DNA of 64,000 nucleotides from a virus: the IMG/VR virus record IMGVR_UViG_3300037071_003688. The stretch is one strand, 5' to 3'. The position numbers and the translations under genes were made by a program. Positions 8,834 to 63,725 of the stretch are shown one piece after another (within the stretch, counting starts at the first letter, position 1; each line of letters starts with the position of its first letter). The notes under the pieces were generated by a model. The model searched no databases, was not told the origin of the DNA, and saw only the letters and a program-made list of their open reading frames with translations.

Positions 8834-11800
8834 ACCGCGGCCAAGTCGTGCTGCGCGTCGACGTGGGCGGTCCCCCGATCGAATACTTCGCCGACCAGGT
8901 CACTCGGGTCGTCGCCTACAACCCGTCGAGTCTCGACGCGTTCGAGTTCGTCAAGGACCCGGACGAGTACGTCTGGACGTTCGAGTCGGATGGTCGCGAC
9001 ATCTTCGTGGAGGAAGTCCTCGTCTACATCGACGGCACCGACCTGTTCACCCGCCACCCGGTGAACACCGAGTTCAACGCCCGGCTCACCATCGACCTGC
9101 GCACCCAAGGCGTCCACAAGGGCACGTCGCCCCGAGTCGATCGGATCAAGGGATGATCGAACGCATCAAGGTCGACGCCCTGCGCACAGTCCACCCGGGC
9201 GGACGCATCGAGATCACCCCGATCATCTTCGACGCGGACGGCGCAGCCGAGTGCTACGAACCGGCCACCGGCGGACCGCCATACGACCTCGGATACCTGG
9301 ACTACCTCATCAAGCTCAACCGCGACTGGGCCGACGCCCCGCCGTACACCGCCGACACCATCGCCTGGATGGAAGCATTGAGAGCGATGGTCGTGGATCA
9401 CCAAGCTGGTCGACTGTGAAGATCCGACTGACGTGGCCCGCCGAGCCACACACCCGCTACGCCCAGTCCGCATTCGACGCGCAGGTCGGCAAACTCATCA
9501 AGCTCAACGTCGAAGGCATCGACACACCGTTCCCCGCCATACTGCGAGCGGCGACTGTCGGCGAGAACGGCCACGCCGCCGAGTTCGAGTTCGAGATCGA
9601 AGACCCGGCCGCGTGCGTCGTGCTGTCCGCCTACGTCGCCACCGGCGCAGTCAACAACCTCTCCATCGTGAACGATCAAGATAGTTGACAAACCGTAGAC
9701 CAGATGAGACAATCAAGGCATGGAAACCACCACGTACGAAACCTGGACGAAGGAAGGTCGTAGCTTCGTCCTCGTCCCTGTCGACATGGCTGCGCGAGAG
9801 GCCGCGTTTCTCGCTGAACTGAGCGACGAAGACGCCGCCATGTGGGAGCCGTGGTACCCGGACTTCCCGGGTGAGCGTGCCCCTGTCGCCTACGAACTCC
9901 ACGACGAGGCCGGTGAGGTCGCCTGGGAGCGCACCATCCGCCCGCTCGATCCGTGGTCGGCGTACGACGCAGTGTCGGACGTCCTGCTCCGCGAGGGCTT
10001 CACCCCGCCGCCCGGCCCCGACCGCGGCTTCTGCGAACACGGCATGTCAGCCGATCTGTGCGAAGGCCCGAACCACTACGGCTACGACGACGAGGATCGG
10101 TTCTAGATGACCGGCGATCTCATCACACTCCCCGTCGCCCCGGCGTACGAGGCGATCATGAACGCCCTCACCGAGGAGGAACTGTTCGCGCTGGTCGAAG
10201 CACTCTCGCTCGTCTCAACCGCGTCGGCTGAGAACGATCGGATGCGCACCGCCATCATCCGCGAACTCTCGATCCGAGAGGCATACATCCGCGGCGCCAA
10301 GCGCCGCCATCCGAGCGGAGGCTCCACCTGATGCAAGAGAAGATCGCCAAGATCACCGGCACGTTCCTCGGGTGGGAGGACCACGGGATCCTGACCGCCA
10401 TGCTCGACCTCGACTACGGCGGCGGAGGCTGCCAGTCGACGCCCGGTCATTTCCTCGACCGCTCAACGGGCCACGACGGCGACTACCTGTTCAGCCGTGA
10501 GGGCACCGCCTACGGGATGACGTTCGTCGCCCGACTGATCAAGGCGTGCGGCGTGCGACGGTGGGAGGACATCAAGGGCCGCACCATCATCGCTCTCATC
10601 GAGGATGACCGTGTCGTCGGGATCAAGCCGCTCCCAACCGAACGCGGCGAGCCGTTCATGTTCGCCGACCTGCGCGCCAGGTTCGAGGCGGAGGCCCGAT
10701 GACCCACGGCATCTGGGGCATGGCGTGCTTCAACGGCCTGTCGGCCGATCAGCAACGATTCGTGGTCGAGGAGGGCTACCTGCCGTTCGGCTACAAGCCC
10801 GAAGGCACCTGCAAGCGCGGCGCCGAGATCGGCATCGAAACCTGGGACGACACCAAGCCCGGCCCCCGCTTCTACTGCCGACCATGCGCGATCGCGTTCC
10901 TCGAAGCCGGACGCTGCGACTGCCACGTCGGCTCAGGCGAAGGCGCCTGGCGCGAGACCCACGACTACGACTGCGCGACGCTGCGCACACTGAGGAGCTT
11001 CGCATGATCACACTCACCACCTCGAAGCCGACATACCGATCGAAGGTCGTCGCCGAAGTCGACTTCCCCGTGCTCGCCTACCTTGAGCACGAGACCGCCG
11101 ACCGACGCCGCTTGCGCCGCCACAAGGGCGACATAGCGGTGCGGCTCCCGGCCCCGATCATGACCGACTACGGCCGAGGCCCGAAGCGTCCCGGTGTCTC
11201 CGAGATCGGCAAGTACCGGATGATCGGCGCGCTGCTCACCGTCACCATCGGCGAGGACTCGATGACCGGCACCGGCGTCCTCTACAAGACGCTCCCCGAG
11301 GTCGTCCACTTCTGGCCCGCCATCGACCTCGACCGGACCACGGTCAAGGGCTACAAGAACGGCCGCTCCGACATCCTCGACTGGACGCTCGTCGCGGTCA
11401 CGCTGCACGACTACCCCCCGGCCTGGCCCGACATCCCACGCGCCCGCATCACCCGGCAAATGAGTTGACAGACCGGCGACGGGCGGTGTAAAGTTAAGAC
11501 GTGAGGGGGAGGACCCCTCGGAAAGGAAACCACCATGACAGATGCCGAAATGGCCGAGATGGATGCCTTCGTGGCCGATCTCGGATACCGCAACGAGGTG
11601 CGAGCAGCGATGCTCGCCCACATCGGCCGGATCAACATCCTGTCGATCTCCGGTGGCCGCATCGAGTGGCTCGATGACTTCACCGTCAAGCTGCCGATCA
11701 GTAACGGCTACGCAGTCGAGGTCGAGTACGACCGAGGCTGGGACCTGTACACCGTGCGCCGGACCTTCACCCGCCGCCCGAAGTGGACGGTCGACAACCC

Positions 11801-14800
11801 GAACCCGGAGCCGGTCCGCAAGGTCAAGGGCGAAGTCACGATGGTGTACGCCGAGGATCTCGGCGAGACCGCCTGGCGGGCACACGCCTTCCGCAGCTAC
11901 GAGTTCGGCGAGTGATCGTGGGCCAGTTCTTCGTTGCCGTCATCGAGGATTACACCGAGGAACTGGTCGACCGCCACGGGCCGTTCAAGACCCGGTACGA
12001 GGCCGAACGCCGCGCTGACGCACTCCTCGAACACTACGTCGAGAAGCTGACACGCTCCGTCGCTGTCGAGGTCCAGGATGAGACCGGGAACCCGGTCGAG
12101 AGCGAATGGCCACCGCAGTAGTGGCGCGCGTCCGCAACTTCGGCTGGTGGTGCCACCAGGAAGTCTCCGCCGTCATCGACGCTTGGACCGTCAAAGGCCC
12201 GAAGCCGAAGATCCACGACGACGCTGTCGCCCGGCTCCGCAAGGACTGGCCGCGGCTCGCCGACACACTCGACGCGCTCGACGCCGCCGAGGCGAGGGGC
12301 TGCCCGCAATGCCCGGCCGAGTTCCCGCAATGCCCGGCCGAGTTCCTCGAATGCCACCTGCCGTTCGGACACGACGGGCCGCACCGTCACGAATACGACG
12401 ACCGCGGCACGCTCGAATGGGAGCGCCAGCGGTGAACGACTGGCCCGACGAACTCGAAGCCGCGGCCACCGCGCATTGCGCAGTGATCCGTGAACGGCTG
12501 ATCGCCGTGCATCGCTCGATGGACGATTGGGCGGTCGACTTCCTCGCCGCTCTCGACGCCCACACCCTTGGAAAGAGTGTTGACAAACCGTAGACAATCT
12601 GCGCATACTGTAGATGGACATGGAAACCACCACCGCGACCCTCGGATTCGTACTGGATGCCTTCGCCAGCCGTCACCTGCGTGACTGGTTCTGGCTCGGG
12701 ATGTGCCCCAACGACTGGGATTACGAGGATCTCGAAGCCTTCGAGGCGTGGGTCGCCGAGAACGCCGACGATCTCTACGACGACATGGGCTGGACCGCTC
12801 TGGTCCGGCTCTACGAGGCGACACGATGAGCTACTACCGGGAGACCCGCAACCGGATGACCGGCACGACCATCGTCACCGGCCGCGGCGACGACTACCGG
12901 ATCGACCTGTCGGTCGACGGCGACGGCCCCTGGTTCAACATCTGCGCCGACCACGGCGCCATCATCTCGCACACGACGCTCGCCCTCGCCCGCTACTTCG
13001 CTCCCGCACCCGACAACTGGTGCGACGACTGCCGCGACCTACTGGAAGGAAAGCCATGACCGCCCCTCTCGACACCTGGTGCTTCACCGCACTCACGCCG
13101 CTCTGCGACAACTGCGGCGAACGCCACCTCGACGCCCGCGTCGATCTCAACGACCCGGACGATTGCGACCCGGGCTGCGATTGGGACATGCTCGCCGGGA
13201 CCGCCCCGATGCGCTGCCCCTCCTGCTCGAACCTCAACCCGCACTGCGGCGACGAGTTCCACGAGCCACGCCATCCGGCCGACAACCCCCGCTTTCTCAC
13301 GTCCGACCGGATCGGATTCTCCGTTCCCGCCTGAAAGGAAACCACCATGCCCGCCTACCGGATCTCCACCAACACGGTCCGCCCGCTCGAAGACGCCCCC
13401 CGGGGCAGCTACGAATGGCTCCCGTTCGAGGACGACAAGAACGTCCTGACCGTCACCATCACCTCGGCCGCTGACCTGCGCGCGAAGATCGCCGCCGCCG
13501 TCCTCGTCCACTTCGACCTGTTCCCCGACGCCACCGCCTGCAAGCCGTTCGCCGACAAGCTGCGCGGCGAGCGTCACGTGTCGGGCGGCAAGGCTGCCTG
13601 CAACGCCTCGATGGTCCTGCGGGAGACTGTCTCTGCATGATCCCCGATGACGTGCTGGCGTGCGAGTCGATCGTCCAGAGCCTCCGGAACGGCGACCTGC
13701 GCGCGGCACGTCGCGGGATGTTGGTGACCTCCCGCTTCGGGACACGCTCCCGGGTCGAGGTCGCCCACCTCGCGCTCGAAGTCGCCGCCGCCATGATCCG
13801 ATCCGGCAGCGACCCGTACATCAGCCTGAGAACGGTCCAGGCCGCGCTCAAGCCCGAGGAACCGGACCCGGCATGATCGACCATCCCGACTCGACCGGCG
13901 TCGCCGTCCGGGACCAACTCCTGTTCGACGTGTTCTGCGCCGCTGTGCCGGAAGGGATCAGCCTGTGGGCGCACGGCTACCGCCGCGCCGTCGACAAGTA
14001 CCACTTCGGCGCCCACATCGTGGACCTCGACCTGCGTCACCATCGCATCACCCGCACCACGATGGTCCACGGCATGAACGCCGCCGCCTACACGTGGCGC
14101 ACCAAGATCCCGTGGTCGACCGAGTACCCGCCGACCCTGTTCCAGAGCGAAGCAGGCTGGGAGTTCGACGCCGCCGACGCCGACCTCGTCGTCCAACTCG
14201 GCCTGTTCCACGACCTGCCCTACTCGACCGATAACCTGCTCCGCCGCGGCGTCATCCGACGTGGCAAGATACTTGACAGACTCCCGACAGGATGAGATAA
14301 TCAAGGTATGGAGACCACCACTCTCACGTGTAAGTGCTTCGTAGAACGCAACGGCTACTGGACCGGTCGTCGCTGCAAGTTCAAGGCGAAGTTCATCGTC
14401 ACCACCAGCGACGGCCCCAAGCCGATGTGCGGCATCCACAAGAACCGGATGGTCCGCCGCGGCTGGCACAACAGCGTCGTCGTCGTCCCGCTCGATGAGG
14501 CCAAGCCATGACCGTCGAGTGGATGGCAACCAATCCCCGCGAGGCGTTCGACACGCGTCTCGCCATGCGACGCAACGTCGACCACCTCGTCCGTCAACGG
14601 GTGCGCGGCTACAAGGGCCGCATCGCCTGCAAGATCGACGGCCGCTGGGGCGCGATCGAAGACGCCTGCATCGGCCACGTCCACAACAAGCGCAGCGCCG
14701 CCCACGCCTGCGCCGCCCGCGAAGCCCGGGCACGCAACCGGATGGTCGGCTGATGGCCGGGAACGGGACGGGCTACCCCAACCACTTCGAGTGCTCGAAG

Positions 14801-15655
14801 GCCCGGCTGATCTACTACGGCGACCGGTCGAGCACCGGCGAACCAGTCGCTCGCACTAGCCGTGAACGCGCCGCCCACGTGATCACGTTGACCGGCCGCA
14901 CCAAGCCGACACCACGCAACGGCAAGGGCCATCCGCGCAAGTCGTGGACGACGCGCGAGTACCGGTGCTCGTGCGGTCACGTCGGCTGGTCGACGCACAT
15001 CGACCTCGAACGGCTCGAAGCGGCCCGTGAACGCTGACCGCCTGATCGTGCTGGCCGAGACGCTCGAACGCGACGCCGAACTGCTCGACCATGACCCCGC
15101 CGCGCTTTACATCGTGCCGACCGAGCATTTGCCCGTGGAGATCATCCGTCTGACTCGCAGCCGCTTCAAGGCGCGACTCGGGATCCACGCCTCGATCCGT
15201 ATGCGCGAGGTCGCCGCCGAGCTACGCGCGATGGCAGCCGTGACGGATCGGTAGGTGAGTGGGTGAGTTCAGATGTGAAACTCGAACGCCTCATCCCACT
15301 CGTCGTCCCGTTGAAAGGCGACGGCGAACAGACCTGCATCATCTGCGGCCATCTGCTGCGCCAGTCGCGCCTGATCCACATCATCGACGGCGGCGCCGCG
15401 GTCGCCCATCCCGACTACCGAGGCATACCATCGCCTGCGATGACCTGCTGCGTGTGCGGAGGCCCACACCATCCCGACGACTGCGCGCGCGCCCAGGAGT
15501 ACGTCCGCCAGTGCCTCGAAGCCCGGACCAGCCCCCCGCCGCCGAGGCCGGTGCCGTGGTGGAATCCCGACACCGGGATCTTCGAGGTCGAGATCACCAC
15601 GGCGACCCGGTGGGACAGTTGGCGGTTCGGTCGACGCGTGCAACAGCACGGCTAG
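8830..15655 (+). other. Block of ~23 small hypothetical early genes
   Basis: Coupled ORFs: 8830-9156, 9153-9419, 9416-9688, 9720-10106, 10107-10331, 10331-10702, 10699-11007, 11004-11468, 11535-11915, 11912-12121, 12106-12435, 12432-12593, 12620-12829, 12826-13059, 13056-13334, 13347-13640, 13637-13876, 13873-14295, 14308-14511, 14508-14753, 14753-15037, 15027-15254, 15263-15655. Many have CxxC motifs; several begin METTT. Confidence 0.65.
12303..12344 (+). repeat. In-frame 21-nt tandem duplication
   Basis: CCCGCAATGCCCGGCCGAGTT x2, encoding PQCPAEF twice. Confidence 0.9.
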
Positions 15656-15685
15656 CGGAATGTCGCCGCTGTCGCGTATGCTGAC

Positions 15686-15790
15686 GGTTGGATCCCGGTC
15701 GGCCCCCAACGCTGGTTGTGATCCTTCGGGTGAGGGTTGTCAGGCGTGTTTCCGTGGTGGTTTCCCGCCGACGACCCTCACCCGCTTCGC
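15686..15790 (+). ncRNA. Putative antisense sRNA
   Basis: 15-bp stem 15727-15741/15770-15784 plus GGCG/CGCC; the 19-nt loop contains GTGGTGGTTTCC; -10 TATGCT at 15677. Confidence 0.6.
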
Positions 15791-15909
15791 GTTCAGCCCG
15801 CCGCCTTGCGTGGCGCACTTCACATGGTGCTAACATCCCGCCACTCACGCGGCAACGGCCCGGACCTCGCCCCGCCGCACAAACCGCCCGGACGGAAGGG
15901 TCAAAACGG

Positions 15910-16602
15910 ATGCAAGCAGCGGTCCTCGAACGTGTCCTCGACTGGCGACCATTCCACGACGAACGGTCACTCGATCATCCAGTCCGGGACCGGCTCCCGG
16001 ACCACTGTCGCCGCCGCCTGCGAATGTGGCAGGCCGGACGCCAACTCGACCAAGGGTTCCACAGTGGCAGCGTCGGCTACGGCTGGACGACAGAGTTGCA
16101 AGCGGAACCATCGACGTTCAACAGCACCCTCCCCGCCGAGCACTTCGCGACGCACCTGTACCGCCAGGCGCAACAGGTCGATGACTTCCCCGGCGAGTCG
16201 TACCTCGGCACGAGCGTGCTCGCCGCCGCCAAGGCGCTGCACTCGGGCGGGTACATCGCGTCGTACTCGTGGGCGTTCACCATTGACGACGTGATCGACG
16301 CCGTGGTCGAGATCGGCCCGGTCGTGATCGGCATCCCGTGGTTCGAGTCGATGTCGACCACCTCCACATCGGGCATGGTCGAGGTCAACGGCCGCATCGT
16401 CGGCGGGCACTGCGTCACCATCACCGGCTACGACCCGCAGCTACAACTCCCCGACCGGATAATGCCCGACGAGGCGCTCCGCTGGCGGAACTCGTGGGGC
16501 GACAGCTACGGCGACCAAGGCGACGGCTACATCCGCGCCGAAGACCTCGAACACCTCCTGTGGGGCCGCTACGGCAGCGAGGCGTGCGTACCGATCGGTT
16601 GA
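15910..16602 (+). CDS. Papain-like (C1) peptidase homolog with Ser at the catalytic Cys position
   Basis: LDQG..SGSVGYG, GPVVIGIPW, GGHCV, RNSWG. Confidence 0.75.
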   Translation: MQAAVLERVLDWRPFHDERSLDHPVRDRLPDHCRRRLRMWQAGRQLDQGFHSGSVGYGWTTELQAEPSTFNSTLPAEHFATHLYRQAQQVDDFPGESYLGTSVLAAAKALHSGGYIASYSWAFTIDDVIDAVVEIGPVVIGIPWFESMSTTSTSGMVEVNGRIVGGHCVTITGYDPQLQLPDRIMPDEALRWRNSWGDSYGDQGDGYIRAEDLEHLLWGRYGSEACVPIG

Positions 16603-16639: not shown

Positions 16640-17406
16640 ATGGAAACCACCACGATCACCAGAACGCATCACCTGGCGTTCCGCCTGTCCCTCGCTCTCC
16701 CCGTCTGCGGGTCGAATGACGGGGGCGGACTCCTCCTCGACCCCGACCGGGTGACCTGTGAAGACTGCCGCCGGATCTGCGGCCTCGGCCCGAAGCCGCT
16801 GAGTTGGGACGAGGCGTACGACCTGGTTCGATGAGACTCGTGAAGTCCACTGAGGACGACGGCCAACGCGCCGAACTCGGCGTCGTGTACCGACTCGAAC
16901 ACCCCGCCATGCCGTTCGCGGTGTGGAACGGCGAGAAGTTCGTCGGCCCCCGCGAACGCTTCCACCTCCGCCTGCTCGAACTCGCCGACCGCGCAGCGGG
17001 CGGATGGATCGAACGCGTCGCCGGTCCAATCACCGGCGTGCTGCTCGTACCCGAGATCGAAAGCGCCTACTGCACGACCTGCGACTGGGACGTGACACCG
17101 GGCTGCAAGCCCCGCTCGCACCGGATCACCGACGAGATGGCTCCCAACCGCGAACTGCTCGCAGCGATCGACTCAGTGACCGCTCCGTGGCTCGAAGCCG
17201 AAGCCGAAGCGCGCGCCGCGGCCGAGGTCGCCGAGATCCTCGTGCGCGCGTTCAGGTGGGAGGCCAACGAGGGCTACCCGTACGTGCCGTCCGCGATCGA
17301 GACGGTGGCACTCTGCCGCCGACTCAACCAACTCGACGCCGACGACTCGGAACGGGCGACCATCGAGGCACGGTTCCCGGATCTGGTCTGCAAACTACAG
17401 GCGTGA
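16640..17406 (+). CDS. Two hypothetical proteins (16640-16834; 16831-17406)
   Basis: Leaderless METTT start; coupled second ORF. Confidence 0.6.
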
Positions 17407-17487
17407 AACTAAGTTGACGAACTCTGGACAGGGGCGGTATACTCCCGATGTGATTACGATGATTGCATTCGGGTATCGGAGATCGGC

Positions 17488-17862: not shown

Positions 17863-18140
17863 CCTCGCATCTCGTCATCCGCGCGGTCGAGATGCGAAGC
17901 GGCGACGCCCAGCTATGGCTCGACACCGACCATCAGCGCATCGTGGACGTGTTCTTCGACCGCAGCCAACACCACAAACCGGACCCTGGCTTCGGGCATC
18001 TGTTCGTGGTGATCGAGATCCTCGCGAAACCTACTTGACTCCCGATCGGTCCAAGGTTTACGGTGTCCCCTCGTCCGGTCAGGCAGGTGACCTCCGCGGG
18101 GATCTGAGTCTGGCCGGACAACTTGACAACTTAAGATCTC

Positions 18141-18221
18141 GTGTGCCCGGTGCGTAGGTGACGGTTACTTCTCCCTTTACATGGAAACCAAGCTCCGTTG
18201 CCGTCTGGTTCTCGGGCACAC
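18141..18221 (+). ncRNA. Y RNA-like unit 1
   Basis: Terminal stem GTGTGCCCG/CGGGCACAC; shared GGTGCG.....TACTTC...GGTTCTC scaffold. Confidence 0.7.
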
Positions 18222-21071: not shown

Positions 21072-21634
21072 CGTGGCGGTTTCCTTCCCGTGGGAGGCGT
21101 CTCCTCCCACATCAACATCGTAACACGGGTGTCAAGTCTGTTGACAAACCGTGGACGATCTGCGCATAATGATGGTGGACATGGAAACCACCACCAACTA
21201 CATCACCGTCTTCCCGGCGACGAACAATCGGCGGGGCTGGATGGTCGCCACCCGCGACGGCGCGAACATCCGCCACGTCCGTTTGGAGACGGCTTCGATC
21301 CACGACCCCGAGGCCGCACGAGCCGAGGCAGCCAAGCTGTTCCCCGGCAAGGCGATCTACATGGCCGGTGACACGGTCAAGCCGTGGGAGGCGGCTGCTT
21401 GATGCCACGAACCCTCACCGCCCGCTACACCGGGACCTGCCGCCGCTGCGACGGCCCGATCACCCCGGGCGACACCATCCTGTTCCTCGGCAAGCGCAAC
21501 ACCGTCCACGAGAACTGCGCCGAGCGGGCCGAGTCGGGCGTGATCGAGATCTACTTCCCCTCGACCGGCAACCGGATCACCCGCAACCGGCGGGGCACCT
21601 GCGAAGACGCCCCGGCGTGTGGATGCTGCACCTT

Positions 21635-23446: not shown

Positions 23447-24718
23447 ATGGAAACCACCACGATGACCACCAACCTGAGCTTCACTCCCATCGAGTCGACG
23501 CTCACCGGCGTGAGCATCCACCTCGCCGACTACCTGAACGTCAAGCTCGCCAAGATCAACAAGCGGCTCGCCAAGATCGGCGCTCCCGCCGCCACGTTGA
23601 CGTTCGGCCCGGAAGTCGAGCGCACCGAGACCGACGAGTTCACCGGTTTCAAGCGCACCTTCCGCGAGTTCGAGTTCGTCACGGTCACCGGCTTCGAGGC
23701 CAAGTTCGCCGGTTGGACCGGCGTCGCCGTCCTCGACTGGCGGCTCGACCCGCACGAGGCATTGGTCGCCAAGTTCCCCGGCGAGGAAGACACCGCCGTT
23801 AGCGAGGTGTTCGTCCGGGAGGGCGCCTGGTGCGACCACTGCAACAAGATCCGCTCCCGCAACACCACGGTCCTGTTCCGCCACGAGGACGGCACCGAGA
23901 TGCGGGTCGGCACTTCCTGCATCCTCGACTTCATCGGAGTCGACCCCTCCAACGTCACGTGGCTCGCCACCCCGATGTTCGGCGGCGCCGACGACGAGGA
24001 GGAGTTCCGGACCGGCGGTGGCCGCTTCGAGGTCTCGCCCGCCGAGTTCCTCGCCGCAGCCGCCGAGGCGACTCGCCTGTTCGGGTTCGTCAAGTCCCGC
24101 CCCGACACCGCATACGACACGCCGACCCGGTCGCACGCCGCGACGCTCTGCTACCGCCGCCTCAACGACTACGAGAAGAAACTGTACGCCGAGGTTGACC
24201 ACGGCCGGGGCGCCGCCGAGGCCGACAAGATCCTCGCCTGGGTCGATGAGGTCAACGACTTCTCCGACTTCATGCGCTCCGCCAAGCTCGCCTGCCGGGC
24301 CGATCGGGTCATCGACCGCACCGAGGGTCTGCTGGCGGCGCTGCCCTTCTCCTACATGAAGGCGATGGGCAAGCTCGCCGAGCGCAAGGCAGCCGCCGCC
24401 GCCAAGCCCACCGACTTCCTCGGAACGGTCGGCGAGAAGCTGACGGTCGAGGGCACCGTGACCTTCAAGATGGCGATGGAGCCTTACGCCTACAACGGGC
24501 CGACGCCCTATCGACTGACCATCGTCACCGACGACGGCTACACGCTCACGACGAAGGGTTCCGGCAACACCCTCTGGGAGGCCGAGGTTGGCGACCGGAT
24601 CACCTGGACCGGCAAGGTCATCGAGCTTGAGGATCACGAGAAGTGGGGCAAGCGGACCGAGTGCCGGATGGTCAAGATCAAGATCCTCGTCCCCGCCGCC
24701 GAGGCCACCGACGAATGA
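23447..24718 (+). CDS. Zn-finger and probable C-terminal OB-fold protein
   Basis: CDHC..R.R...VGTSC; FLGTVGEKL..EGTV beta-rich C-terminus. Confidence 0.65.
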   Translation: METTTMTTNLSFTPIESTLTGVSIHLADYLNVKLAKINKRLAKIGAPAATLTFGPEVERTETDEFTGFKRTFREFEFVTVTGFEAKFAGWTGVAVLDWRLDPHEALVAKFPGEEDTAVSEVFVREGAWCDHCNKIRSRNTTVLFRHEDGTEMRVGTSCILDFIGVDPSNVTWLATPMFGGADDEEEFRTGGGRFEVSPAEFLAAAAEATRLFGFVKSRPDTAYDTPTRSHAATLCYRRLNDYEKKLYAEVDHGRGAAEADKILAWVDEVNDFSDFMRSAKLACRADRVIDRTEGLLAALPFSYMKAMGKLAERKAAAAAKPTDFLGTVGEKLTVEGTVTFKMAMEPYAYNGPTPYRLTIVTDDGYTLTTKGSGNTLWEAEVGDRITWTGKVIELEDHEKWGKRTECRMVKIKILVPAAEATDE

Positions 24719-27700
24719 GAAAGGAAACCACCATGACGACCGACGCCTGGACCGAAGCCCACCGCTTCCCGTTCAACACCGACGAGAACTGGTCCGAAAC
24801 CGAGGAAGGTCTGCTCACCATCCACGACATGAACCCGGGTCTGATCGCCCCCGGGATCGCCGCCCGAGTGATCTACGAACTGCGCCTCGACGTCGCCCGC
24901 CTCAACAGCGAGGCCATCGAGGTCACCGCCAAGTACCGGAGGGAACTCGCCCTCCGCCTGGCAGCCGAAACCGAACTGGCGCTGATCAAGACCGCCCTGC
25001 GAGACCTCACCGCATGAGAAAGGAAACCACCACGATGACCTGGAACTACCGCAAGTACGGCGGGCTGGTCACCTACACCACCGACATCAACACCTTCGCT
25101 TGTGTTGTCGAAGGCTGGGATGACGGACCGTGGAAGTGGTACGTCTACGAAGATCCGATGACCCACCACTACGGCGGGACGCCCGAGTCGGCCGGTGAGG
25201 AAGCCACCATCAAGGAAGCGATGGCCGCGGCCGAGAGCTACGCCACGGCGGTGACACGATGAGCGGCGAGATCACGATCACGATCGTGCCCGACTCCCCG
25301 TGCCCCGACTGCGGCGCCGCCTGGGGTCACCCGGACAAGGCGCTTGACTTCCCGAACCGCCCGAAGGTCGGCGACGCCGATGGGACCTGGTGGTGGAAGT
25401 GCTACAACCCCGCCTGCGCCCGGGACTACTACCTGCCGCTGCTCTAACCGAAAGGAAACCACCATGACCACCCACCGACTCGTGATCCTGAGCTACGAGG
25501 ATCCCACCTACCGCCACGTGATCGCCGAACGCGAGACCGAGGCGAGCCTGGCCCGCATCTCGGCCGGGGTCAACATCAACCTCAACCACGACGAGTTCTT
25601 CACCGAGATCGAGGAGGTCGACGGCGATGAGTGACACCCGCTGCCTGGAAGCCGGGCCGGACTGCCGGGGCCGGGTCGAGATGTGGACGACGGACGGCCT
25701 GCGCTACTGGCCGCGCTGCGACTTCCACGGCGAACGCCGCTTGGAGCGGTACGAGAACTCGCTCGAACGCTACGCCGATAGCCCGCTGGCGCCCGACTGG
25801 TTCGATCCGACCATCGCCGGTGAACGCTGGGACGACGACTACTGATGCTCAAGACTCCGTCAACAGAGTTGCCAACCTCGGACCATCGAGGTAAGGTTAA
25901 GTGCAAGAGAGGAGAGGAATGACCACGACATACACCCGCCGCTACTTCCTCGAAATACGCGGCTCCCCCGAGGTGGAAGTCACCGAGGCCGAGTTCGTCG
26001 CGGCTGAACGAGCGAACGGCATCAACCCCAGCTACGGCGAGGATCCGGACCGGCCCGTCACCGGCGGCTTCGGCAATGCTCGCATCCGTGCCCGCACGGA
26101 GACCATCTACAACTAGGAAAGGAAACCACCACATGGACACACTCGGATTCGGACTGCGCAACGCAGTCCCCAACACCGCCGAAGCGGCATGGGGCGCACG
26201 CTTCATCATCTACGCCGATGGCGGAGTCGACTTCGTTCCCAACCGGACCGACGTCGTCGGCACCACTGAGAGCAAGGCGGCACTGCTCGCACTGCTCAAC
26301 GAGAAGCTGCCGAAGCGGGCACTGATCGACATCATCAGCGCCAAGATCAAGGCGTACGAGATCTCGACACGAGAACCCAACGAGGTCGTCCTGTTCGACG
26401 CTGACGGACTCAAGGTCGTCGGCAACTCGAACGGCTCGCACGGCTACTTCTACGTCGCCGCCTTCCCCACCGCGAGCGTCGCATGAGCGCACTCCCTGTC
26501 GCACTTGACGACGGCCGATCGACCGTGGCACTGCGGATCCTGTCACACCGTGCCCGCAGGAACCTGACCCGGCTCGTGCCCGACCTGGACAACTGGTGCT
26601 CGATGCGCGACGGCCACGTGTTCCTCATGGCCAGCGACGATCTCGACGCCGCGCTGGACGCCATGCCGCGCTACTGCCGGGGTTCGATCCGGCCGCTCAA
26701 GCGCCTCCCATCCGGTGACGGTTGGGGCCGGGCATGGCGATCGGTGACGACATGAGGCTCAAGCCGTTCGCGGTGACGCTGACCTACTTCGTCGGCAACA
26801 TGGGCACGTCGTCCACCATCGACGTGTGGACGGCGACGGCGAAGGCGGCGCGCGAGTGCGGCGAGTCGTACGCCCGCGAGGAAGGCATCCCCGACGCCAC
26901 GATCACGGTCACCCCGCACCGTGAATACTCTTGACAACCCTAGTCCGGATGGGAGATAATACAGACGTGACAGAAACCACCACCATCTACCGGATCGCGG
27001 AGGGCACCGAGACCGCGGACGGCGTCAAGCCCGTCTGCGTGATGTTCGCACTCTGCGACAACGACGCCACCTTGCTGATCCCCCACCCGGTCCTCGACTG
27101 GGTGTTCTCGTGCGAACGCTGCGCCCGCAAGCTGGGCTACGACGTCAACGACAACCTGCTCACCGCCGACGTCAGCTTCGACTGAAAGGAAGCCACCATG
27201 ACCACCTCCACCCCCGCCGACATCAACCGGCTCGCCACCCTGCTCGAACGAATCGAGATCCTCGCCAACAAGATCGACATGCCATTCGAGACCGACGTCG
27301 GAGCGAAGTACATCCGAGTGGTCGACACGAGCTACAGCCGCTCGGTCCACGCCTTCGTTGATCGCGAGACCGGCGACCTGTTGAAGGCTGGCGGCTGGAA
27401 AGCCCCCGCCAAGCGTAAGGGCGGCCCGGCGACTGTCGGCAGCCTGCTCAACGACGACGACTTCGCCACCATCCTCGCCCGCGCCGACCGCTACGGCGGC
27501 TACCTCTACAAGCGTCCCTGACCGAAAGGAAACCACCACATGACCACCGACGATGACATGGTGTTCGACAGCCGATACGCGCTCTACGGGTACGCCAGGG
27601 CCGAGGCCGCTGACGCCCTCATTGACGAGTTCATCGCCACCCTCACCACCGAGGATCTCGACGGGATCCACAACGCTGTGAGCGATGAAGCCTGGGCGCT

Positions 27701-30047: not shown

Positions 30048-31949
30048 ATGGGAACCACCACTGCTAGGTCAGCCCGATCAACCAACAACCATCCGAAGCC
30101 GATCACGGGCCGGGTCACCGAGTTCCGGATCGGCCCCTACCGAGTGCTCGAAGCGGGCGATGAGGCCGACGTCCACTTCCCCGAGAAGCGCAAGTCCTAC
30201 CGTCGAGCGAAGTTCGTCTACGCCGTGGGCAACACGCTGGTGTTCGTCAAGCCTGACACCGGCGGACTGGTCGGCGTGCTGCCCGACAAGGTCGGCACCA
30301 TCCACCGTCTGAATCGTTTGAGAGGCTCCGAATGACCACCATCCGATTGAAGATCACCTACGAGTGGTCCGGTCTCGAAGAACTCTGCCTCCCCCAAGCC
30401 GACAAGGTGATGGCCGCTCTGATGGCGACCGATGACCGCGAGCCACGAGCGTTGAACCGACCGAAGGTGTCGATGGACGTGAAGCTGATGTCGCACCGCT
30501 ACGAAGGCCCGGACCGCCCGTACGAACAACCGGTCGAGCACGAATGAACCTCACCCTGACCGCCGAGCAGAACGCCGACCGGGAACGGCCGACTTGTGCG
30601 ATCAAACTTCCGTCGCACGTCGGCACGCCCGCCACATGGGCAGACGCCAATCACCCGCAGTGGTACGTATGCGACCGCCACCGCCGCCAGTACGAGGAAC
30701 GAGCGGACGAGTTCGGCCCGTTCGCCTGGGAACCAATCTGATGCAACTCCAACTCAGCGACTCGCAGAACGCCGACCGGGAACGGCTAGGAGCATGCGTC
30801 GTGGTCGGCCAACTGTGCGGCTATCACGCTGACGGCCGTCCGAAGCCGCCCATTGATGCCGCCTGTGCGTGCTACCAGTTCCCGCCCCGCCAGTTCGCCG
30901 ACGCCGCAGCACCATGCCCGTGTGGGAAGTTGACCGGCAAACCCGGCTGGACCCTGGCTCCCGGCTTCAAGCAGATGAAGCCCTGCCCGGATTGTCGTGA
31001 CGGCAAGCCGATCATCGAGATACGGGTGCCGTGTCCGAACAACTGCACGCGCTTCGATGGCAAGGTACCCGGTCACATTTACGGGTCGAACTGGCCGTGG
31101 GTGCCGTGCCAGACGTGCATGGGCACGATGTTCGTCGTGGTGGCTCGGGCCACCGTCACGCTGCTGCCGGTCCTCGACGCCACAGACACCAACGACCACG
31201 TCAACGTGCGACACGTCTGCATCGCTCAAGGCAGCGACCCGGCCCCGCAGGCGTTCTTGGACGGCGGCTCGGCCGGTATGCGGCGGCTCGCATTCGATCC
31301 GTTGCCTGTGGCTGGCAGGGATTGGATCGCCGTGTTCGAGGATGTCGCGTGATCGTGGTCGGTCAGCACTGGCAGTCAGGCCCGTGGCGCGAGACGCCCC
31401 GCGAGATCGTGATCGAGGCCGTGCTTCCCATCGGGGCCGAGATCCCCGAGGATGTCGCGTTCCGGTTCCTCGACGGAGAGCAGACCTCGACGTGCTCGCT
31501 CAACGCCTTCCGCCGGACCTACGTCGAGGTGCCATCGTGAGAGTTCGTCGCTTCCCGCGCAAACCGATCGACCGGTCCCGGCCACCGCTCGGCCCGGGCG
31601 GGGCGAGGGTCATCCTGCTGTATCCGAACGGTGCCAGCACCGGGATCACGTACACGTCGGTCCAAGCACTGGCGAAGGACCAGACCTCATGATGCCGCCG
31701 GACTGCGTCCTGTGCGAGGAGCCGATCGGGTCGCTCGACGTGGTGCGGATCCACCCGGGCTACGCCCACCGCGAGTGCGCGATGCGGTCGGCGCTGGGCG
31801 GGATCGGCCACTTCGAGGATCACGACTTCTGGTGCGAGAACATGGGCGACCCGGACGGCGGACGGACGTACCATCAGTCGGCGCTCGAAGTCGCCGCGTT
31901 GTGGGACGCCGGGAAGATCTCGTCTTCCGAGTCGGGTGTGGGAGACTGA
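30048..31949 (+). other. Small hypothetical genes
   Basis: 30048-30335, 30332-30547, 30544-30741, 30741-31352, 31349-31540, 31537-31692, 31689-31949, all coupled. Confidence 0.6.
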
Positions 31950-59872: not shown

Positions 59873-62800
59873 ATGCTGCGTCCGCGTTACGACCTGGACC
59901 CCGACGCGATGACGGACAACGAGCGGCGCGCCAAGCGGCGCTTCGACGCCTACTTCGTCTTCGAGACGATGCCGTGGCCACCGGCGGACCTCCCCGCAGA
60001 TCCGGACTAGGGACGTCAACAGTCTTGACAAACCCTAGTCCGTCTGCGCATAATGAAGACGTGAGAGAGGGTCCCACCACCTGCGGCAAGATCAAGAATG
60101 TCCGGGTCAGCCGGGGCGTCCTCGGCAAGGGCAAAGAGTCGTTCACGACCCGCCCTGTCATCTGCGGCGCCAACGTCGCGCCCGGATCGGACCTGTGCCC
60201 GATGCACCTGGCGAACGCCAAGCGTTGGGAGGCCAAGCTGGCCGCGAAGAAAGCGTGGCTGGCCGCGAACCCCACCGCCACGAAAGCGAGGAACAAGTGA
60301 TCGCCACCGCCAACCACCCACCCATCAGCCTCGACGCCTCGAACATCACGATCCGTCTGGGCGATCGGCGCCTGCCGCCGTTCAGCGAGTTCCCGGCCTG
60401 GGCGGCGCTGACCGAGTACCTGGCAATGATCCTCGGACCCATCGAACCTGGCAAGTGACTTGACAACCCTAGTCACGATGACCTAAGATTCTCTTGTGAG
60501 GGAAGGACCCTCACGGAAAGGAAACCACCACTCATGGCCTACGCCGACAGGAACTTCAAGACGAAGAAAGCCTTGAAAGAGGCCGTAGCCGCGGGCGAGA
60601 AGGTCGGGATCTTCAACCCCGGCCTGGGAGTCGCCCCCGAGAACGGGACGGCCAGCCTCGAAGGTCCCCACTTCCCGGCCGCTCACACCTGGTACGCCAG
60701 GGTGGCCGTCGTCAACGGGGTGATCACGAAGGTCATCAGCTAGCCGGAACGTTTCACGTGAAACGTCCGAGAGAGGAGAAACCACCACGACAGAACCCAT
60801 GAGCCAGCTTCCCGGCCGGGTACCACAACCCGACAACTACGTCGCCGGGAGGCTGCCCGGGGAGTCGTGAGCCGCCCACCCACTGGCTCCGACTCCCCGT
60901 TCAGCCAGACGAAAGGAAACCACCACCGATGACCCGATGGACACGAGTGACCGACCCCGGTGGTCGGGTGATCGGCTACAAGAGCGAGGTAGGAGCCGTG
61001 GACAAGAACCCGCACGGCGACGGCCTTTGGTTCCTGTCGCCCGCCGGTGACCACGGACGAACCGCCCACCTCACGCTCACCGCCGCCAAGGCCCGCGCCG
61101 AGGCGCTCGCCCGAATGAGAAAGGAAACCACCCCATGACCGACTTCGAGAAGTTCCTCAAGGAACACGTGATGGTCATCCCGGTCGGCTTCACCCGGAAG
61201 TGTCGCGAGTGCGGCCGGGTGTTCGACCTGTGCGACCCGACCGACGCCGACGAGTTCACCAACGGCCACGACTGCGAGGCCAACTGATGAGCCGCTACAA
61301 GGTCCACGGCGACTGGACAGTCGACGGCGAACTCGGCCCACGCGACATGTTCTTCGTGATGTTCGCTGATGCGCTCGACACGAAGACCGGCGACGTGTTC
61401 CGAGCCGGTGCCTACCGAGTTGTCGACGCCTACGGCAAGCCCGCCGTCAAGGGCAAGGGCGGCACCGTCCCGTTCTACGGCGAGTCGGCCTGGTCAAACG
61501 CCGCACGGCTGGCCGAGGATCTCACCTTCGCCGCCCGCCGAGCGTCGTGAATACTCTTGACAACCTTAGTCCGGATGGGAGATAATCAAGACGTGAGAAA
61601 GGAAACCACCACCACCATGACCCACACTTACGAAGTCAGCCACCCGAACCTGTCGCATCCGCTGGTGATGGACTCCGAGGTCGAACGGACCCCGCGAGCA
61701 CTCGCCGCCTGGGCGTCGATGTACATCCTGCGGGAGTTCGATGAGATGCTCCCCCTTGACGAGTTCACGGTCACGGAGGTGACGTGATGTCAGATCCCAC
61801 CGAAGCCGCACGACGGGAGTTGATCCCGACCATGCCCGCCGAGGCGCTCGCCGCGGCCGAGCGCGGTGAGCCGGTCTGGACGACCGACGAGATGACCGCC
61901 GAGTTCGAGGCGATCGGATTCCTCGCCCCGTTCGTGATGGTCCGGCGCCGGTCCGATGGCGTCAAGGGCACGCTGATGTTCAGCGGTCGCCCCCGCTTCT
62001 ACTTCGGATTCGCCGAGGCATGAGCATGAACGCCACCGTCACGGTCACCTACGACGGAGAGTCGGTCACCTTCGAGTTGGAGGGGGCCGAACTGTCCGAG
62101 ATCCATCTGAGCGACACGCTCACCAACCGCTACCTCAACAACGCCAGCCGCAGCGTCATCGCCGACGAGGTCGAGAAGGCGCTGCTTCACCTCGCCCACG
62201 GAAAGGCACTCTCGTGACCGGCACCTTCAACACGCCGCTCGGCAAGATCCGCGTCGCCTCGATGCGACGCTTCATCCTGCTGCGCCGCTACACCGACAAG
62301 CCGGTCATCGTCAAGCGGTCCGACAGCATGGAGACTCTGCTGCGGCTGCGCCGCACCGGCGACTTCATCCTCGACACGGCGTGCCTGTGCGACCGTCGCC
62401 CCGGCGACTTCATCGTCAACCCCAGGTGCGCCAAGCACGGCGCCCACGAGTACCACGGAGCACCAACATGAAACTGACCAACGGGGCGACCGTTCTGCGC
62501 GCTGCCATCAACTACGAGGGCGAGACGGCCACAGCGGTCGTGCTCGCGACGTGGAACGCTCACGAGTTCGTCACCTGGGACGCCTACCTGCGTCCAGGCG
62601 AGACCGAGTGGGACGCCGAGGTCGGCCACTACTTCAACGCCCACGAGCCGTTCAGCGAGGCCACCATCGCCGCCGCCAAGGACGCCGCGATCGGCGACTT
62701 CCGCGCAAGGATCGGAGCACGATGAACACGAAGCACACAGGCGACCACCGCCACCGCACTGAGGTCCACTTTGAGCGGATGCCCGGCCTGGCGTTCGCCA

Positions 62801-63725
62801 AGACCACCGCCTACTTCGCGACCTGCGACTGCGGCTGGGTCGGACGCGAGATGGTCTCGCGCCGCGACGCCGAGAGCGACGCCAACGAGCACGCCTGCGC
62901 GATGGCGGGCGAATGATGTTCGTCTGGGACGAGTACGCCGGGTGGATCGAGATGTCGTGCCCCGAGCACAACCTCGATTGGGCGTGGTCCGCGGGCACGC
63001 CGTTCTGCCCCGTCTGCCGGTACGTCCCCGAGGGCGCCCGACCCGCCACGAGCGAGCCGAGCATCACCTGCCCGGTGTGCGCCATGACCTCGTACAACCC
63101 GAACGATATTCGGGAGGGCTACTGCGGCAACTGCCACGAGTTCACCGGCGTAAAGACTCTTGACAACCCTGGTCCGGATGGGAGATAATCAAGGTATGGA
63201 AACCACCACCGCAACGCCCACCACTCACGACATCGTCGTCGGCGACATCTTCGAGTATTCGTGGGGCTACGACCAAACGAACGTCGACTACTTCGAGGTC
63301 GTCGCCACCACCGCGAAGACCGTGAAGATCCGCAAGATCGGCGCCCACTCGGTGCCCGGCTCGGAAGGCTTCATGAGCGACAAGTGCGTGCCGGTCCCCG
63401 GCAAGTTCGTGTCCGAGACAATCCTCACGAAGCGCCCGTACCTGTCGACCTGGCGCGGCGAGAACATCTGGATGCTCTCGTTCGACTTCGGCTGCGGCGA
63501 GCGCATCGCCCCGACCGAGGCGACACGCCGGTCGTGGTACGCATGAAGGTTCGGGTCGCGTTCACGGTCGACGTCGATGACGAGATCCGCGCCTCGATCA
63601 GCGAGTGGTACGGCCGCACCGGGCTGGCCACTCGCGACGAGGTGCGGCGTTGGTACGAGTCGAACGGTTCCTCGATGGACGCCGACCTGAGCGAGATGGC
63701 GGGACGCCGTGAAGATCGGGATTGA
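59873..63725 (+). other. Block of small early genes
   Basis: 59873-60010, 60061-60300, 60297-60458, 60534-60743, 60929-, 61135-, 61287-61550, 61617-61787, 61784-62023, 62020-62217, 62214-62471, 62468-62725, 62722-62916, 62913-63188, 63196-63546, 63543-63725, with class I promoters and GGAAACCACC starts. Confidence 0.62.
60749..60766. promoter_or_regulatory. parS: parS-like palindrome
   Basis: ACGTTTCACGTGAAACGT, intergenic; the core equals the actinobacterial parS consensus. Confidence 0.8.

What the first reader, a model, noticed from the sequence alone, without database searches (positions are those of the whole stretch)
15658..15790. Hairpin sRNA whose loop is antisense to the start element of ~19 phage genes
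Seen: a ~19-bp hairpin presenting the loop TGTTTCCGTGGTGGTTTCC. GTGGTGGTTTCC (15754-15765) is the exact reverse complement of GGAAACCACCAC, and this is the only copy I saw in that orientation. The stem has a U-G pair that would be A-C on the other strand, favouring a + strand RNA. It sits behind a different promoter class (GAATGTCGCCG-N8-TATGCT). Inference: one sRNA silences the whole early regulon by pairing at the ribosome-binding region, acting as an early-to-late switch or superinfection block.
Basis: partly seen in the sequence, partly recalled or inferred. Interest (0 to 1): 0.88.

Follow-up and report, generated by a model that had tools for sequence, protein, structure and literature searches.

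The report
Phage RNA hairpin mirroring its start motif
An uncultured actinobacterial phage carries a conserved small structured RNA whose open loop is the exact complement of a 12-base tag at the start of at least 25 of its genes, so one RNA could control their translation together; a similar layout in well-studied Cluster K mycobacteriophages makes this testable.

Summary
GGAAACCACCAC marks about 26 gene starts in the window, always in the gene's orientation. In some genes it is the first codons of leaderless or near-leaderless mRNAs; in others it is the Shine-Dalgarno-plus-spacer just before ATG. The one copy not at a gene start is reversed (15754-15765), in the 19-nt loop of a 19-bp hairpin (15727-15784) inside a 254-bp non-coding gap.

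Seven further related phages (neighbouring peptidase 54-72% identical) keep the same element: a -10 box, hairpin 1, then hairpin 2. Its 20-nt loop is invariant while its stem arms co-vary. The stems hold 13 G.U and no A.C pairs, which points to a + strand RNA.

Loop and motif never vary, so their covariation cannot be tested within this group.

Independently, in mycobacteriophage Adephagia the single reversed start-associated sequence (SAS) also sits in the apical loop of a conserved two-hairpin element. Published RNA-seq places late-transcription initiation in that same gap.

Best reading (about 0.5): an anti-start-motif RNA pairs with, and probably masks, the motif-bearing translation starts. 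Expression and direction of effect are untested.

Earlier notes of this scan report similar hairpins in other phage genomes; I did not check those.

The parts
15263..15655 (+). Upstream gene (130 aa, unknown function), last gene of the preceding operon
   Evidence: GC3 0.82 in this frame. No Pfam or PHROG family. Homologous C-terminus in relatives.
15661..15667 (+). Conserved box TGTCGCC upstream of the -10 element (role unknown; wrong distance for a -35)
   Evidence: Conserved in relatives. The pattern TGTCGCC-N8-11-TAnGnT occurs only twice in 64 kb.
15677..15682 (+). P1: -10-like hexamer TATGCT (TAnnnT), putative promoter of the RNA
   Evidence: TATGAT, TATGCT, TAAGAT or TAAGGT at the same place in all 8 phages. 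Hairpin 1 begins 6-10 nt downstream. Promoter activity is inferred, not shown.
15690..15724 (+). Hairpin 1 (loop CCCCAAC)
   Evidence: Folds in all 8 homologues. Loop CCCCAAC or CCCAAC in 7 of 8. Many G.U pairs on the + strand.
15727..15784 (+). Hairpin 2: 19-bp stem with bulged A15742
   Evidence: The stem co-varies among 7 distinct sequences: native arms -36.0 vs swapped arms -27.6 kcal/mol. 13 G.U and 0 A.C pairs. The covariance model finds one copy per phage.
15747..15765 (+). Apical 19-nt loop; GTTTCCGTGGTGGTTTCC plus the following CG (15748-15767) is invariant in 8 phages
   Evidence: Alignments A2 and A3.
15754..15765 (+). Anti-motif GTGGTGGTTTCC, exact complement of GGAAACCACCAC
   Evidence: 12-bp duplex -20.8 kcal/mol; loop opening cost 4.5 kcal/mol.
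15785..15792 (+). Conserved 3' tail (C/G)TT(C/T)GCGT after hairpin 2; no U-tract
15828..15836 (+). P2: extended -10-like TGcTAACAT upstream of the peptidase gene
   Evidence: TGnTAnnnT at the equivalent place in the relatives. Inferred promoter.
15910..16602 (+). Papain-like (C1) peptidase gene; used as the synteny anchor
   Evidence: PF00112 on the longer ORF 15688-16602. phrog_16701 peptidase. Homologues P0004-P0014.
9722..9733 (+). Motif, leaderless type (ATG begins 2 nt upstream, directly after a TTGACA/-10 promoter). Same type at 2162 (TTG), 12622, 14310, 16642, 21183, 23449, 30050 and 63198. At 26972 a GTG lies 5 nt upstream.
   Evidence: Each opens an ORF with GC3 of 0.80-0.94.
12622..12633 (+). 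Motif, leaderless type
14310..14321 (+). Motif variant GGAGACCACCAC, leaderless type (A4G keeps a G.U pair with the loop)
16642..16653 (+). Motif, leaderless type (gene just after the peptidase)
21183..21194 (+). Motif, leaderless type
23449..23460 (+). Motif, leaderless type
30050..30061 (+). Motif variant GGGAACCACCAC, leaderless type
63198..63209 (+). Motif, leaderless type
11525..11536 (+). Motif, RBS type ((G)AAA + motif, then ATG within 0-4 nt). Same type at 13337, 24723, 25022, 25454, 26121, 27188 (GGAAGCCACCAT), 27528, 28244, 59863, 60520, 60915, 61123 and 61601. Site 60777 is uncertain.
26121..26132 (+). Motif, RBS type (aggaaaGGAAACCACCACatg)
27528..27539 (+). Motif, RBS type
60520..60531 (+). 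Motif, RBS type, preceded by a small hairpin at 60496-60514
21073..21084 (-). Motif variant GGAAACCGCCAC, RBS type, for a real - strand gene. Shows that the motif follows gene orientation.

Best explanation
The 254-bp gap encodes a conserved + strand structured RNA of about 100 nt. It may be a discrete sRNA transcribed from its own -10-only promoter, or the 5' leader of the peptidase operon. It consists of two hairpins. Hairpin 2 is a long, stable stem that displays a 19-nt loop. Twelve bases of that loop are exactly complementary to the phage's private start-associated motif, GGAAACCACCAC.

The motif sits at +3 to +14 of leaderless or near-leaderless early mRNAs. Elsewhere it forms the Shine-Dalgarno-plus-spacer just before ATG inside operons.

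Proposed mechanism (inferred): the loop base-pairs with the motif on many mRNAs at once. This occludes the 5'-AUG or the ribosome-binding site, so one RNA changes translation, and perhaps stability, of the whole motif-bearing gene class. Down-regulation is the most likely direction.

Because one loop must match more than 25 sites, both sequences are evolutionarily frozen. That would explain their complete invariance.

What is shown: the sequence complementarity, the conservation, the stem covariation, the strand bias, and the energetic plausibility. What is inferred: transcription, pairing in vivo, the sign of the effect and its timing.
For: 1. Enrichment and orientation. 27 motif copies against 0.30 expected. 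All follow gene orientation except the loop copy.
2. Conservation. Eight phages, whose flanking peptidase is 54-72% identical to the window's, keep -10 box, hairpin 1 and hairpin 2 at the same place. Twenty loop-region bases are invariant, against 71% mean column identity for the whole element.
3. Stem covariation. Native arm pairs fold at -36.0 kcal/mol on average; swapped arms at -27.6. The native pair is best or tied in every case.
4. Strand. 13 G.U and 0 A.C pairs in the stems. The + strand MFE is lower than the - strand MFE in all 8.
5. Not coding. Hairpin lengths of 58, 60, 61 and 63 nt break any reading frame, and GC3 is flat.
6. In every relative, the only motif copy that does not follow gene orientation is the loop.
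7. Complementarity ends exactly at the motif borders. Net predicted binding is -10 to -15 kcal/mol. Target sites are unusually open: 2.6 vs 7.5 kcal/mol opening cost for random windows.
8. Internal variants at true starts are mostly A-to-G (A3G, A4G, A5G, A8G several times). These keep G.U pairs with loop U's.
9. Independent analogue. In Adephagia the single reversed SAS lies in the apical loop of hairpin 2 of a two-hairpin element (z = -6.67). The surrounding ~180-nt region matches 142 Cluster K phage records (138 over at least 80% of its length), and in the relatives I folded the stems differ while staying paired. That gap is where late transcription initiates (PMC11373665).
10. The reversed SAS was recorded in 2011 as unexplained (PMC3203893).
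Against: - P1 is only a -10-like hexamer.
- Loop and motif are both invariant in all 8 relatives. There is therefore no direct loop-motif covariation within the group.
- Stoichiometry: one RNA would face at least 25 mRNA species.
- A 12-bp helix inside a 19-nt loop is topologically strained for internal (non-5'-end) sites. The loop can also form weak internal pairs, costing 4.5 kcal/mol to open.
- In Cluster K the complement is imperfect in Ekdilam (1-nt deletion with the SAS unchanged) and degenerate in Shandong1. ShedlockHolmes (K3) has none.
- Microbacterium phage AnnaSerena has a SAS but no reversed copy in the 7-56.7 kb that I searched.
- So start motifs work without such an RNA; at most it is an added regulator.
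- The A-to-G bias of the variants could simply be mutational.
Confidence: 0.5

Rival explanations
1. Same RNA, different job. The two hairpins are a cis-acting 5' leader, or an inter-operon stabiliser or processing element. The loop-motif pairing would then have a positive or neutral role: protecting the 5' ends of leaderless mRNAs, guiding a nuclease or ligase, or being titrated by the motif-bearing mRNAs. It would not silence them.
For: There is no U-tract or canonical terminator after hairpin 2, so transcripts from P1 or from the upstream operon may read on into the peptidase operon. In Adephagia the analogous element lies at the start of the late operon. Nothing in the sequence fixes the sign of the effect.
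Against: A conserved second promoter (P2) lies between hairpin 2 and the peptidase gene. Hairpin 1 starts 6-10 nt after the -10, as expected for a discrete and stable RNA. Covering a 5'-AUG or a Shine-Dalgarno sequence normally represses (general knowledge).
Confidence: 0.22
2. The motif is a DNA site. An asymmetric operator for a phage DNA-binding protein would act at promoters and as an orientation-dependent roadblock inside operons, like Cluster A stoperators. The reversed copy would be one more binding site that happens to lie between inverted repeats.
For: The motif is 12 bp, asymmetric, present in more than 25 copies, oriented with transcription, and sits immediately after promoters in 9-10 cases. 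Pope et al. contrast SAS with L5 stoperators.
Against: In the RBS-type sites the distance to ATG is fixed at 0-4 nt. The reversed copy is always in the unpaired loop of a stem that co-varies and tolerates G.U only on the + strand; that pattern is an RNA signature. The complementary stretch ends exactly at the motif borders.
Confidence: 0.13
3. The loop imitates a host RNA, for example a 16S rRNA segment, with which the mRNA motif normally pairs as a translation enhancer. The hairpin would then be a decoy or competitor.
For: Mycobacterial-type 16S rRNA contains GTGTGGGTTTCC, a 10 of 12 match to the anti-motif. First-stage notes on this genome suggest other rRNA-like RNAs, but these are unchecked.
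Against: No exact GTGGTGGTTTCC was found in that 16S context in 401 Actinomycetota genomes sampled. That rRNA segment is base-paired in the ribosome (general knowledge). The motif is not enriched in the one Actinomycetota genome checked: 3 exact copies in 6.9 Mb.
Confidence: 0.05
4. An ordinary terminator or stabiliser hairpin whose loop matches the motif by chance or by a past inversion, with no function for the loop sequence.
For: It lies at the end of an operon. Actinobacterial terminators often lack U-tracts (general knowledge).
Against: An exact 12-mer on a given strand is expected about 0.004 times in 64 kb. Twenty loop-region bases are invariant across 8 phages while the stems and the flanking genes diverge. 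A 19-nt loop is atypical for terminators. The arrangement recurs independently in Cluster K.
Confidence: 0.04

Closest known systems
Start-associated sequences (SAS) of Cluster K mycobacteriophages, including their single reverse-oriented copy (Pope et al. 2011, PMC3203893; Adephagia RNA-seq, PMC11373665)
   Same: A short asymmetric motif in many copies, within a few nt of start codons. It includes a Shine-Dalgarno-like core plus conserved extra bases, occurs in one orientation, and is restricted to non-structural genes. Some copies sit directly behind SigA-like promoters (the ESAS). One reversed copy is not at a gene start. I show here that in Adephagia this reversed copy sits in the apical loop of a conserved two-hairpin element.
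   Different: The sequences are unrelated (GGGATAGGAGCCC vs GGAAACCACCAC), and so are the phages. Here the motif also serves as the first codons of leaderless genes. Here the complement is exact and invariant, whereas in Cluster K it has 1 mismatch in K1 and decays in other subclusters. The papers I read do not connect the reversed SAS with an RNA hairpin.
P1/P7 c4 antisense RNA and P4 CI RNA (phage immunity RNAs; from my own knowledge)
   Same: Small, stable stem-loop RNAs of phages. Their exposed bases pair in trans with repeated short target sites on phage mRNAs. They block a ribosome-binding site (c4) or cause premature termination (CI).
   Different: Those RNAs have 2 target sites in one operon and are processed from the transcript they control. 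This one would have at least 25 targets spread over the genome, all defined by a shared start tag. There is no sequence or Rfam similarity.
T4 RegB endoribonuclease (from my own knowledge)
   Same: A functional analogue: a phage shuts down a whole class of early mRNAs by attacking a short sequence in their ribosome-binding sites.
   Different: RegB is a protein nuclease that cuts GGAG. Here the agent would be an RNA, and the proposed act is base-pairing.
Cluster A mycobacteriophage stoperators (L5 gp71 sites; mentioned in PMC3203893)
   Same: Many copies of a 13-bp asymmetric site oriented with transcription.
   Different: Stoperators are DNA sites for the repressor and have no fixed distance to start codons. 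No RNA hairpin carries their complement, as far as I know.
C-rich-loop sRNAs that pair with Shine-Dalgarno sequences (RsaE/RoxS, RNAIII hairpins; from my own knowledge)
   Same: A hairpin loop rich in C and U pairs with G-rich ribosome-binding sites of several mRNAs, without needing Hfq.
   Different: Those use short degenerate seeds on host SD sequences. Here a 12-nt exact complement matches a phage-private tag.

Membership tests
Start-associated sequence (SAS)-type motif (the motif GGAAACCACCAC) | Short asymmetric sequence, many copies, far above chance | tested here: met
   27 copies with at most 1 mismatch vs 0.30 expected.
Start-associated sequence (SAS)-type motif (the motif GGAAACCACCAC) | Within a few nt of predicted start codons and in the gene's orientation | tested here: met
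   ATG lies 0-4 nt after the motif, or begins 2 nt before it. All copies except the loop copy follow gene orientation.
Start-associated sequence (SAS)-type motif (the motif GGAAACCACCAC) | Confined to non-structural genes | tested here: met
   Sites lie at 2-30 kb and 59.8-63.2 kb. None is at a start in the portal and giant-ORF block at 30.6-59 kb.
Start-associated sequence (SAS)-type motif (the motif GGAAACCACCAC) | Conservation beyond what 16S anti-SD pairing explains; rare in the host | tested here: inconclusive
   Only GAAAGGA can pair with the anti-SD (knowledge of the 16S 3' end). Leaderless sites lack even that. The host is unknown. One Actinomycetota MAG shows no enrichment.
Trans-acting antisense sRNA (c4 / CI-like) | Own promoter and a defined 3' end giving a discrete small RNA | not testable with these tools
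   A conserved -10 lies 6-10 nt before hairpin 1. No canonical terminator. No RNA data.
Trans-acting antisense sRNA (c4 / CI-like) | Conserved secondary structure supported by covariation, on one strand | tested here: met
Trans-acting antisense sRNA (c4 / CI-like) | Exposed bases complementary to target sites at translation starts | tested here: met
   12 of 12 complement in the loop. Net -10 to -15 kcal/mol.
Trans-acting antisense sRNA (c4 / CI-like) | Pairing demonstrated by compensatory change (natural or engineered) | tested here: inconclusive
   Loop and motif are invariant in 8 phages. Across families, the loop matches each family's own motif (here and in Adephagia). In Ekdilam and in K3/K6 phages it does not track perfectly.
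Intrinsic (Rho-independent) terminator | GC-rich stem, 3-8 nt loop, U-tract | tested here: not met
   19-nt loop, no U-tract. The scan found no terminator in 13-19 kb.
Any Rfam family (including C4 and YrlA/Y RNA) | Covariance-model match | tested here: not met
   No hit at 15650-15900 even at E up to 10.
Stoperator-like DNA operator | Bound by a phage repressor as double-stranded DNA | not testable with these tools
   No candidate protein was tested. The RNA-type stem covariation around the reversed copy argues against this.

The most novel reading that the evidence does not exclude
Anti-start-tag RNAs are a general, convergently evolved control device of actinobacteriophages. A phage tags a gene class with a private sequence at the translation start. 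It also carries one structured RNA that displays the complement of that tag. When that RNA is made (in Adephagia, with late transcription), the whole class is switched at the level of translation. This would explain both the function of SAS motifs and the lone reversed SAS, which has been unexplained since 2011. It would also amount to a natural, orthogonal, one-to-many translational switch.
Probability: 0.35. Interest if true: 0.9.

Novelty: new variant of a known kind. Interest (0 to 1): 0.8.

Why it matters
Start-associated sequences have been known in actinobacteriophages since 2011. The 2024 and 2025 papers I read still describe their role as ill-defined or in need of experimental verification. 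The original authors left open whether an RNA or a protein partner recognises them.

A conserved RNA that displays the exact complement of the tag is a concrete candidate partner. It appears here in eight uncultured phages and, independently, in the genetically tractable Adephagia / M. smegmatis system. The question therefore becomes directly testable with loop mutants and compensatory reporters.

If true, this would be a one-RNA, many-gene translational switch acting on leaderless as well as Shine-Dalgarno-led mRNAs. That is of interest for phage developmental timing, for leaderless translation in Actinobacteria, and as an orthogonal control part.

Tried and rejected
- DNA similarity to cultured phages: none, in near or distant mode.
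- IMG/VR: no relatives by peptidase, portal, loop or motif patterns; only chance single hits.
- JGI metagenome scan with a loop-independent stem pattern: 4 unrelated bacterial repeat elements.
- GTDB genomes: one 22-nt loop identity in an Actinomycetota MAG (L073 1683-1704). It has no hairpin and no motif enrichment, and about 1 hit was expected for the 20-mer searched. I treat it as probable chance.
- Loop-motif covariation within the group: impossible, because both are invariant.
- Eighty distant peptidase loci from IMG/VR: none shows the same motif or hairpin. The enriched 10-mers there were DnaA boxes, collagen-like repeats and tRNA arms.
- Third family: Microbacterium phage AnnaSerena has SAS GGGAAAGGACCCC but no reversed copy in 7000-56707. 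The first 7 kb was not checked.
- rRNA mimicry: only a 10 of 12 match in mycobacterial-type 16S rRNA.
- Hairpin 1 loop complement GTTGGGGC: not enriched.
- Second copies or paralogues of hairpin 2: none.
- Minus-strand gene start at the loop copy: no start codon follows it.
- Small ORF 15660-15833: GC3 is flat, and indels in relatives are not multiples of 3.
- P0004, the closest relative at 83%: no DNA available.
- The ZoeJ paper: not held.

Full report
**What the window is.** The window is 64 kb at 65% GC. It encodes a portal protein (phrog_776, E 6e-84), a DNA methyltransferase, a Ro60/TROVE protein, a 1749-aa ORF with a CCA-adding/polyA-polymerase head domain, and six tRNAs. It has no DNA match among 50,697 cultured-phage records and none in IMG/VR. 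A protein-cluster table shows its peptidase on a contig of at least 147 kb. It is therefore a large uncultured phage. Protein relatives are phages of Streptomyces, Gordonia and Arthrobacter, which suggests an actinobacterial host.

**The motif.** GGAAACCACCAC occurs 27 times with at most 1 mismatch, against 0.30 expected. With 2 mismatches allowed, and requiring a start codon that opens a high-GC3 ORF, about 26 copies are gene starts. There are two contexts.
- *(a) Leaderless type.* Directly after a consensus TTGACA-N17/18-TAnAAT promoter, ATG (once TTG, once GTG) overlaps or abuts the motif, so the gene begins ATG GAA ACC ACC AC. The -10-to-ATG spacing of 6-10 nt implies leaderless or nearly leaderless mRNAs. 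This is an inference from spacing.
- *(b) RBS type.* Inside operons, often right after the upstream stop codon, (G)AAA + motif is followed by ATG within 0-4 nt. Here GAAAGGA can act as the Shine-Dalgarno sequence (from knowledge of the 16S 3' end) and AACCACCAC is a fixed spacer.

The 12-mer shared by both contexts is more than a ribosome-binding site. The one variant copy on the - strand (21073) precedes a true - strand gene, so the motif follows gene orientation.

**The finding.** The one exception is 15754-15765, where the reverse complement lies on the + strand. It occupies the 3' two-thirds of a 19-nt loop closed by a 19-bp stem (15727-15784; bulged A15742; U15738.G15773). The element lies in a 254-bp gap. 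On one side is a 130-aa gene of unknown function (15263-15655). On the other is a papain-like peptidase gene (15910-16602; start and frame from GC3 and translation). On the - strand no start codon follows the motif. The ORFs that overlap the gap have flat GC3.

**Relatives.** Peptidase homologues led to syntenic contigs from other metagenomes. Seven further distinct phages (L057, L058, L059, L061, L063, L070, L072; peptidase 54-72% identical) carry the same element at the same place. Its order is:
- a conserved TGTCGCC box;
- a TAnnnT hexamer, mostly TATGAT;
- hairpin 1, starting 6-10 nt later, with loop CCCCAAC in 7 of 8;
- hairpin 2;
- a short conserved tail, (C/G)TT(C/T)GCGT;
- an extended -10-like TGnTAnnnT before the peptidase gene.

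In hairpin 2, the 20 nt GTTTCCGTGGTGGTTTCCCG are invariant. The inner stem differs in almost every phage yet always gives 19-21 pairs.

I ran an alignment-free test by swapping the 3' arms between phages. Native arm pairs average -36.0 kcal/mol and swapped pairs -27.6. The native pair is best or tied every time.

The stems contain 13 G.U pairs and no A.C. The + strand folds better than the - strand in all eight phages. Hairpin lengths differ by non-multiples of three.

This is the signature of a functional + strand RNA whose loop sequence, not only its shape, is under selection. A covariance model of hairpin 2 finds exactly one copy per phage. Rfam has nothing there.

**Loop and motif.** All relatives use the same start motif. 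In each, the only motif copy that does not follow gene orientation is the loop. A natural loop-motif covariation test is therefore impossible in this group. The invariance itself is expected if one loop has to match more than 25 sites.

Three further points support pairing.
- Complementarity stops exactly at the motif borders.
- The 12-bp duplex is -20.8 kcal/mol and opening the loop costs 4.5 kcal/mol. Motif sites are much more open than random 12-mers (2.6 vs 7.5 kcal/mol), giving a net -10 to -15 kcal/mol.
- Internal variants at real starts are mostly A-to-G, which keep G.U pairs with the loop. This last point is only suggestive.

**An independent analogue.** Pope et al. [quoted passage not shown] They left open whether an RNA or a protein recognises SAS.

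I fetched Adephagia. It has 16 SAS copies on the + strand and one reversed copy with 1 mismatch. That reversed copy lies in the apical loop (CCUCCUAUCC) of hairpin 2 of a two-hairpin element in the gp92-gp93 gap. The fold has z = -6.67, and hairpin 1 carries G.U pairs on the + strand.

The ~180-nt region holding this element matches 142 Cluster K phage records, 138 of them over at least 80% of its length.
- Adephagia, Anaya, Peanam, Amelie and Curiosium keep the anti-SAS loop; their stem sequences differ but still pair (by eye on the alignment and folds, no formal test).
- Ekdilam has a 1-nt deletion in the loop although its SAS is unchanged.
- Shandong1 is degenerate and ShedlockHolmes (K3) has no complement.

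[quoted passage not shown] It also states that SAS genes are the early right-arm genes, and that the role of SAS is ill-defined (PMC11373665). A 2025 survey of 188 Cluster K genomes does not mention a hairpin or an antisense copy.

So two unrelated phage lineages with unrelated start tags each place the lone reversed tag in a conserved hairpin loop. In the one with expression data, that locus is where late transcription starts. A third SAS-bearing family, Microbacterium phage AnnaSerena, shows no reversed copy in the 88% of the genome searched. The device is therefore not universal.

**Mechanism and rivals.**
- *Best reading (about 0.5).* An anti-start-motif RNA pairs with the 5'-AUG region or ribosome-binding region of the tagged mRNAs and modulates their translation as a class. 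Repression is the likeliest direction.
- *Rival 1 (about 0.2).* The same RNA acts as a cis leader or has a positive or neutral role. There is no canonical terminator after hairpin 2.
- *Rival 2 (about 0.13).* A DNA-operator model like the Cluster A stoperators. It fits copy number and orientation. It does not fit the RNA-type covariation and G.U asymmetry around the reversed copy, nor the fixed spacing to ATG.
- *Rival 3 (about 0.05).* rRNA mimicry. It found only a 10 of 12 match in mycobacterial-type 16S rRNA among 401 sampled Actinomycetota genomes.
- *Rival 4 (about 0.04).* Chance, or a plain terminator. Conservation and recurrence effectively exclude it.

**Limits.** There are no expression data for this phage. 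The ends of the RNA, the activity of P1, in vivo pairing, the sign and timing of the effect, and the host are all unknown.

**Relation to earlier notes of this scan.** The scan's notes list the same stretch read in another window (e1-5789122). They also list similar "antisense of the start motif in a hairpin loop" reports in other phage genomes (e1-5742738, e1-5344691, e1-5324340, e1-3270912). A sequence look-up found no look-alike of this RNA among them. I did not test those reports. I reached the Cluster K analogue from the literature before seeing them.

Noticed in passing
window 18040-18870 and 18908-20521: A Ro60/TROVE gene (PF05731, E 4e-19) is preceded by an ~850-bp non-coding stretch with repeated GGTTCTC ... 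GGTGCGCAGATG units. It also has a sub-threshold YrlA (Y RNA-like) hit at 18276-18352 (32 bits, E 4e-4). The same gene plus a long upstream gap recurs in relatives L058 and L059.
   Followed up: partly
window 36257-41506: A 1749-aa ORF directly after the portal gene. It has a polyA-polymerase/CCA-adding head domain (PF01743, E 5e-22) and a weak HNH hit. Further giant ORFs follow (41212-46290, 46287-49817, 49814-52093).
   Followed up: no
window 11503-11519, 60496-60514 and 21086-21110 (- strand): Small GC-rich hairpins (for example GTGAGGG-AAGGA-CCCTCAC) lie immediately upstream of RBS-type motif copies. Their stems resemble the basal stem of hairpin 2 (GGGTGAGGG / CCCTCACCC). Hairpin 2 may have arisen from such an intercistronic hairpin.
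   Followed up: partly
L073 1683-1704 (Actinomycetota MAG contig CAWGXI010000012.1): A 22-nt identity to the hairpin-2 loop and its closing bases, in a bacterial intergenic region upstream of a 432-aa ORF. It has no long stem and no motif enrichment in that genome. About one chance hit was expected for the 20-mer searched.
   Followed up: partly
L074 38600-38617 and the same place in L075-L081 (Cluster K phages): An almost invariant box, CACA(A/G)CTGT(G/A)CCCAAAAC, lies immediately upstream of hairpin 1 of the Cluster K element. It is a candidate late-promoter or transcription-start region.
   Followed up: no
window 59110-59842: Six tRNA genes in a cluster (Rfam 47-72 bits). A run of RBS-type motif genes follows directly (59863-61612).
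   Followed up: no
L142 330, 4500, 7514 (IMG/VR contig with a distant peptidase homologue): Several genes begin ATG CCTGAGGCAAC. This may be another private start tag in an unrelated phage. No reversed copy occurs in the 13 kb held.
   Followed up: no
window 17414-17443 and 17488-17862: A TTGACG-N18-TATACT promoter precedes a 124-aa gene. Its homologues in relatives L061 and L071 carry weak MerR_1 hits. It could be a regulator near the RNA locus.
   Followed up: no
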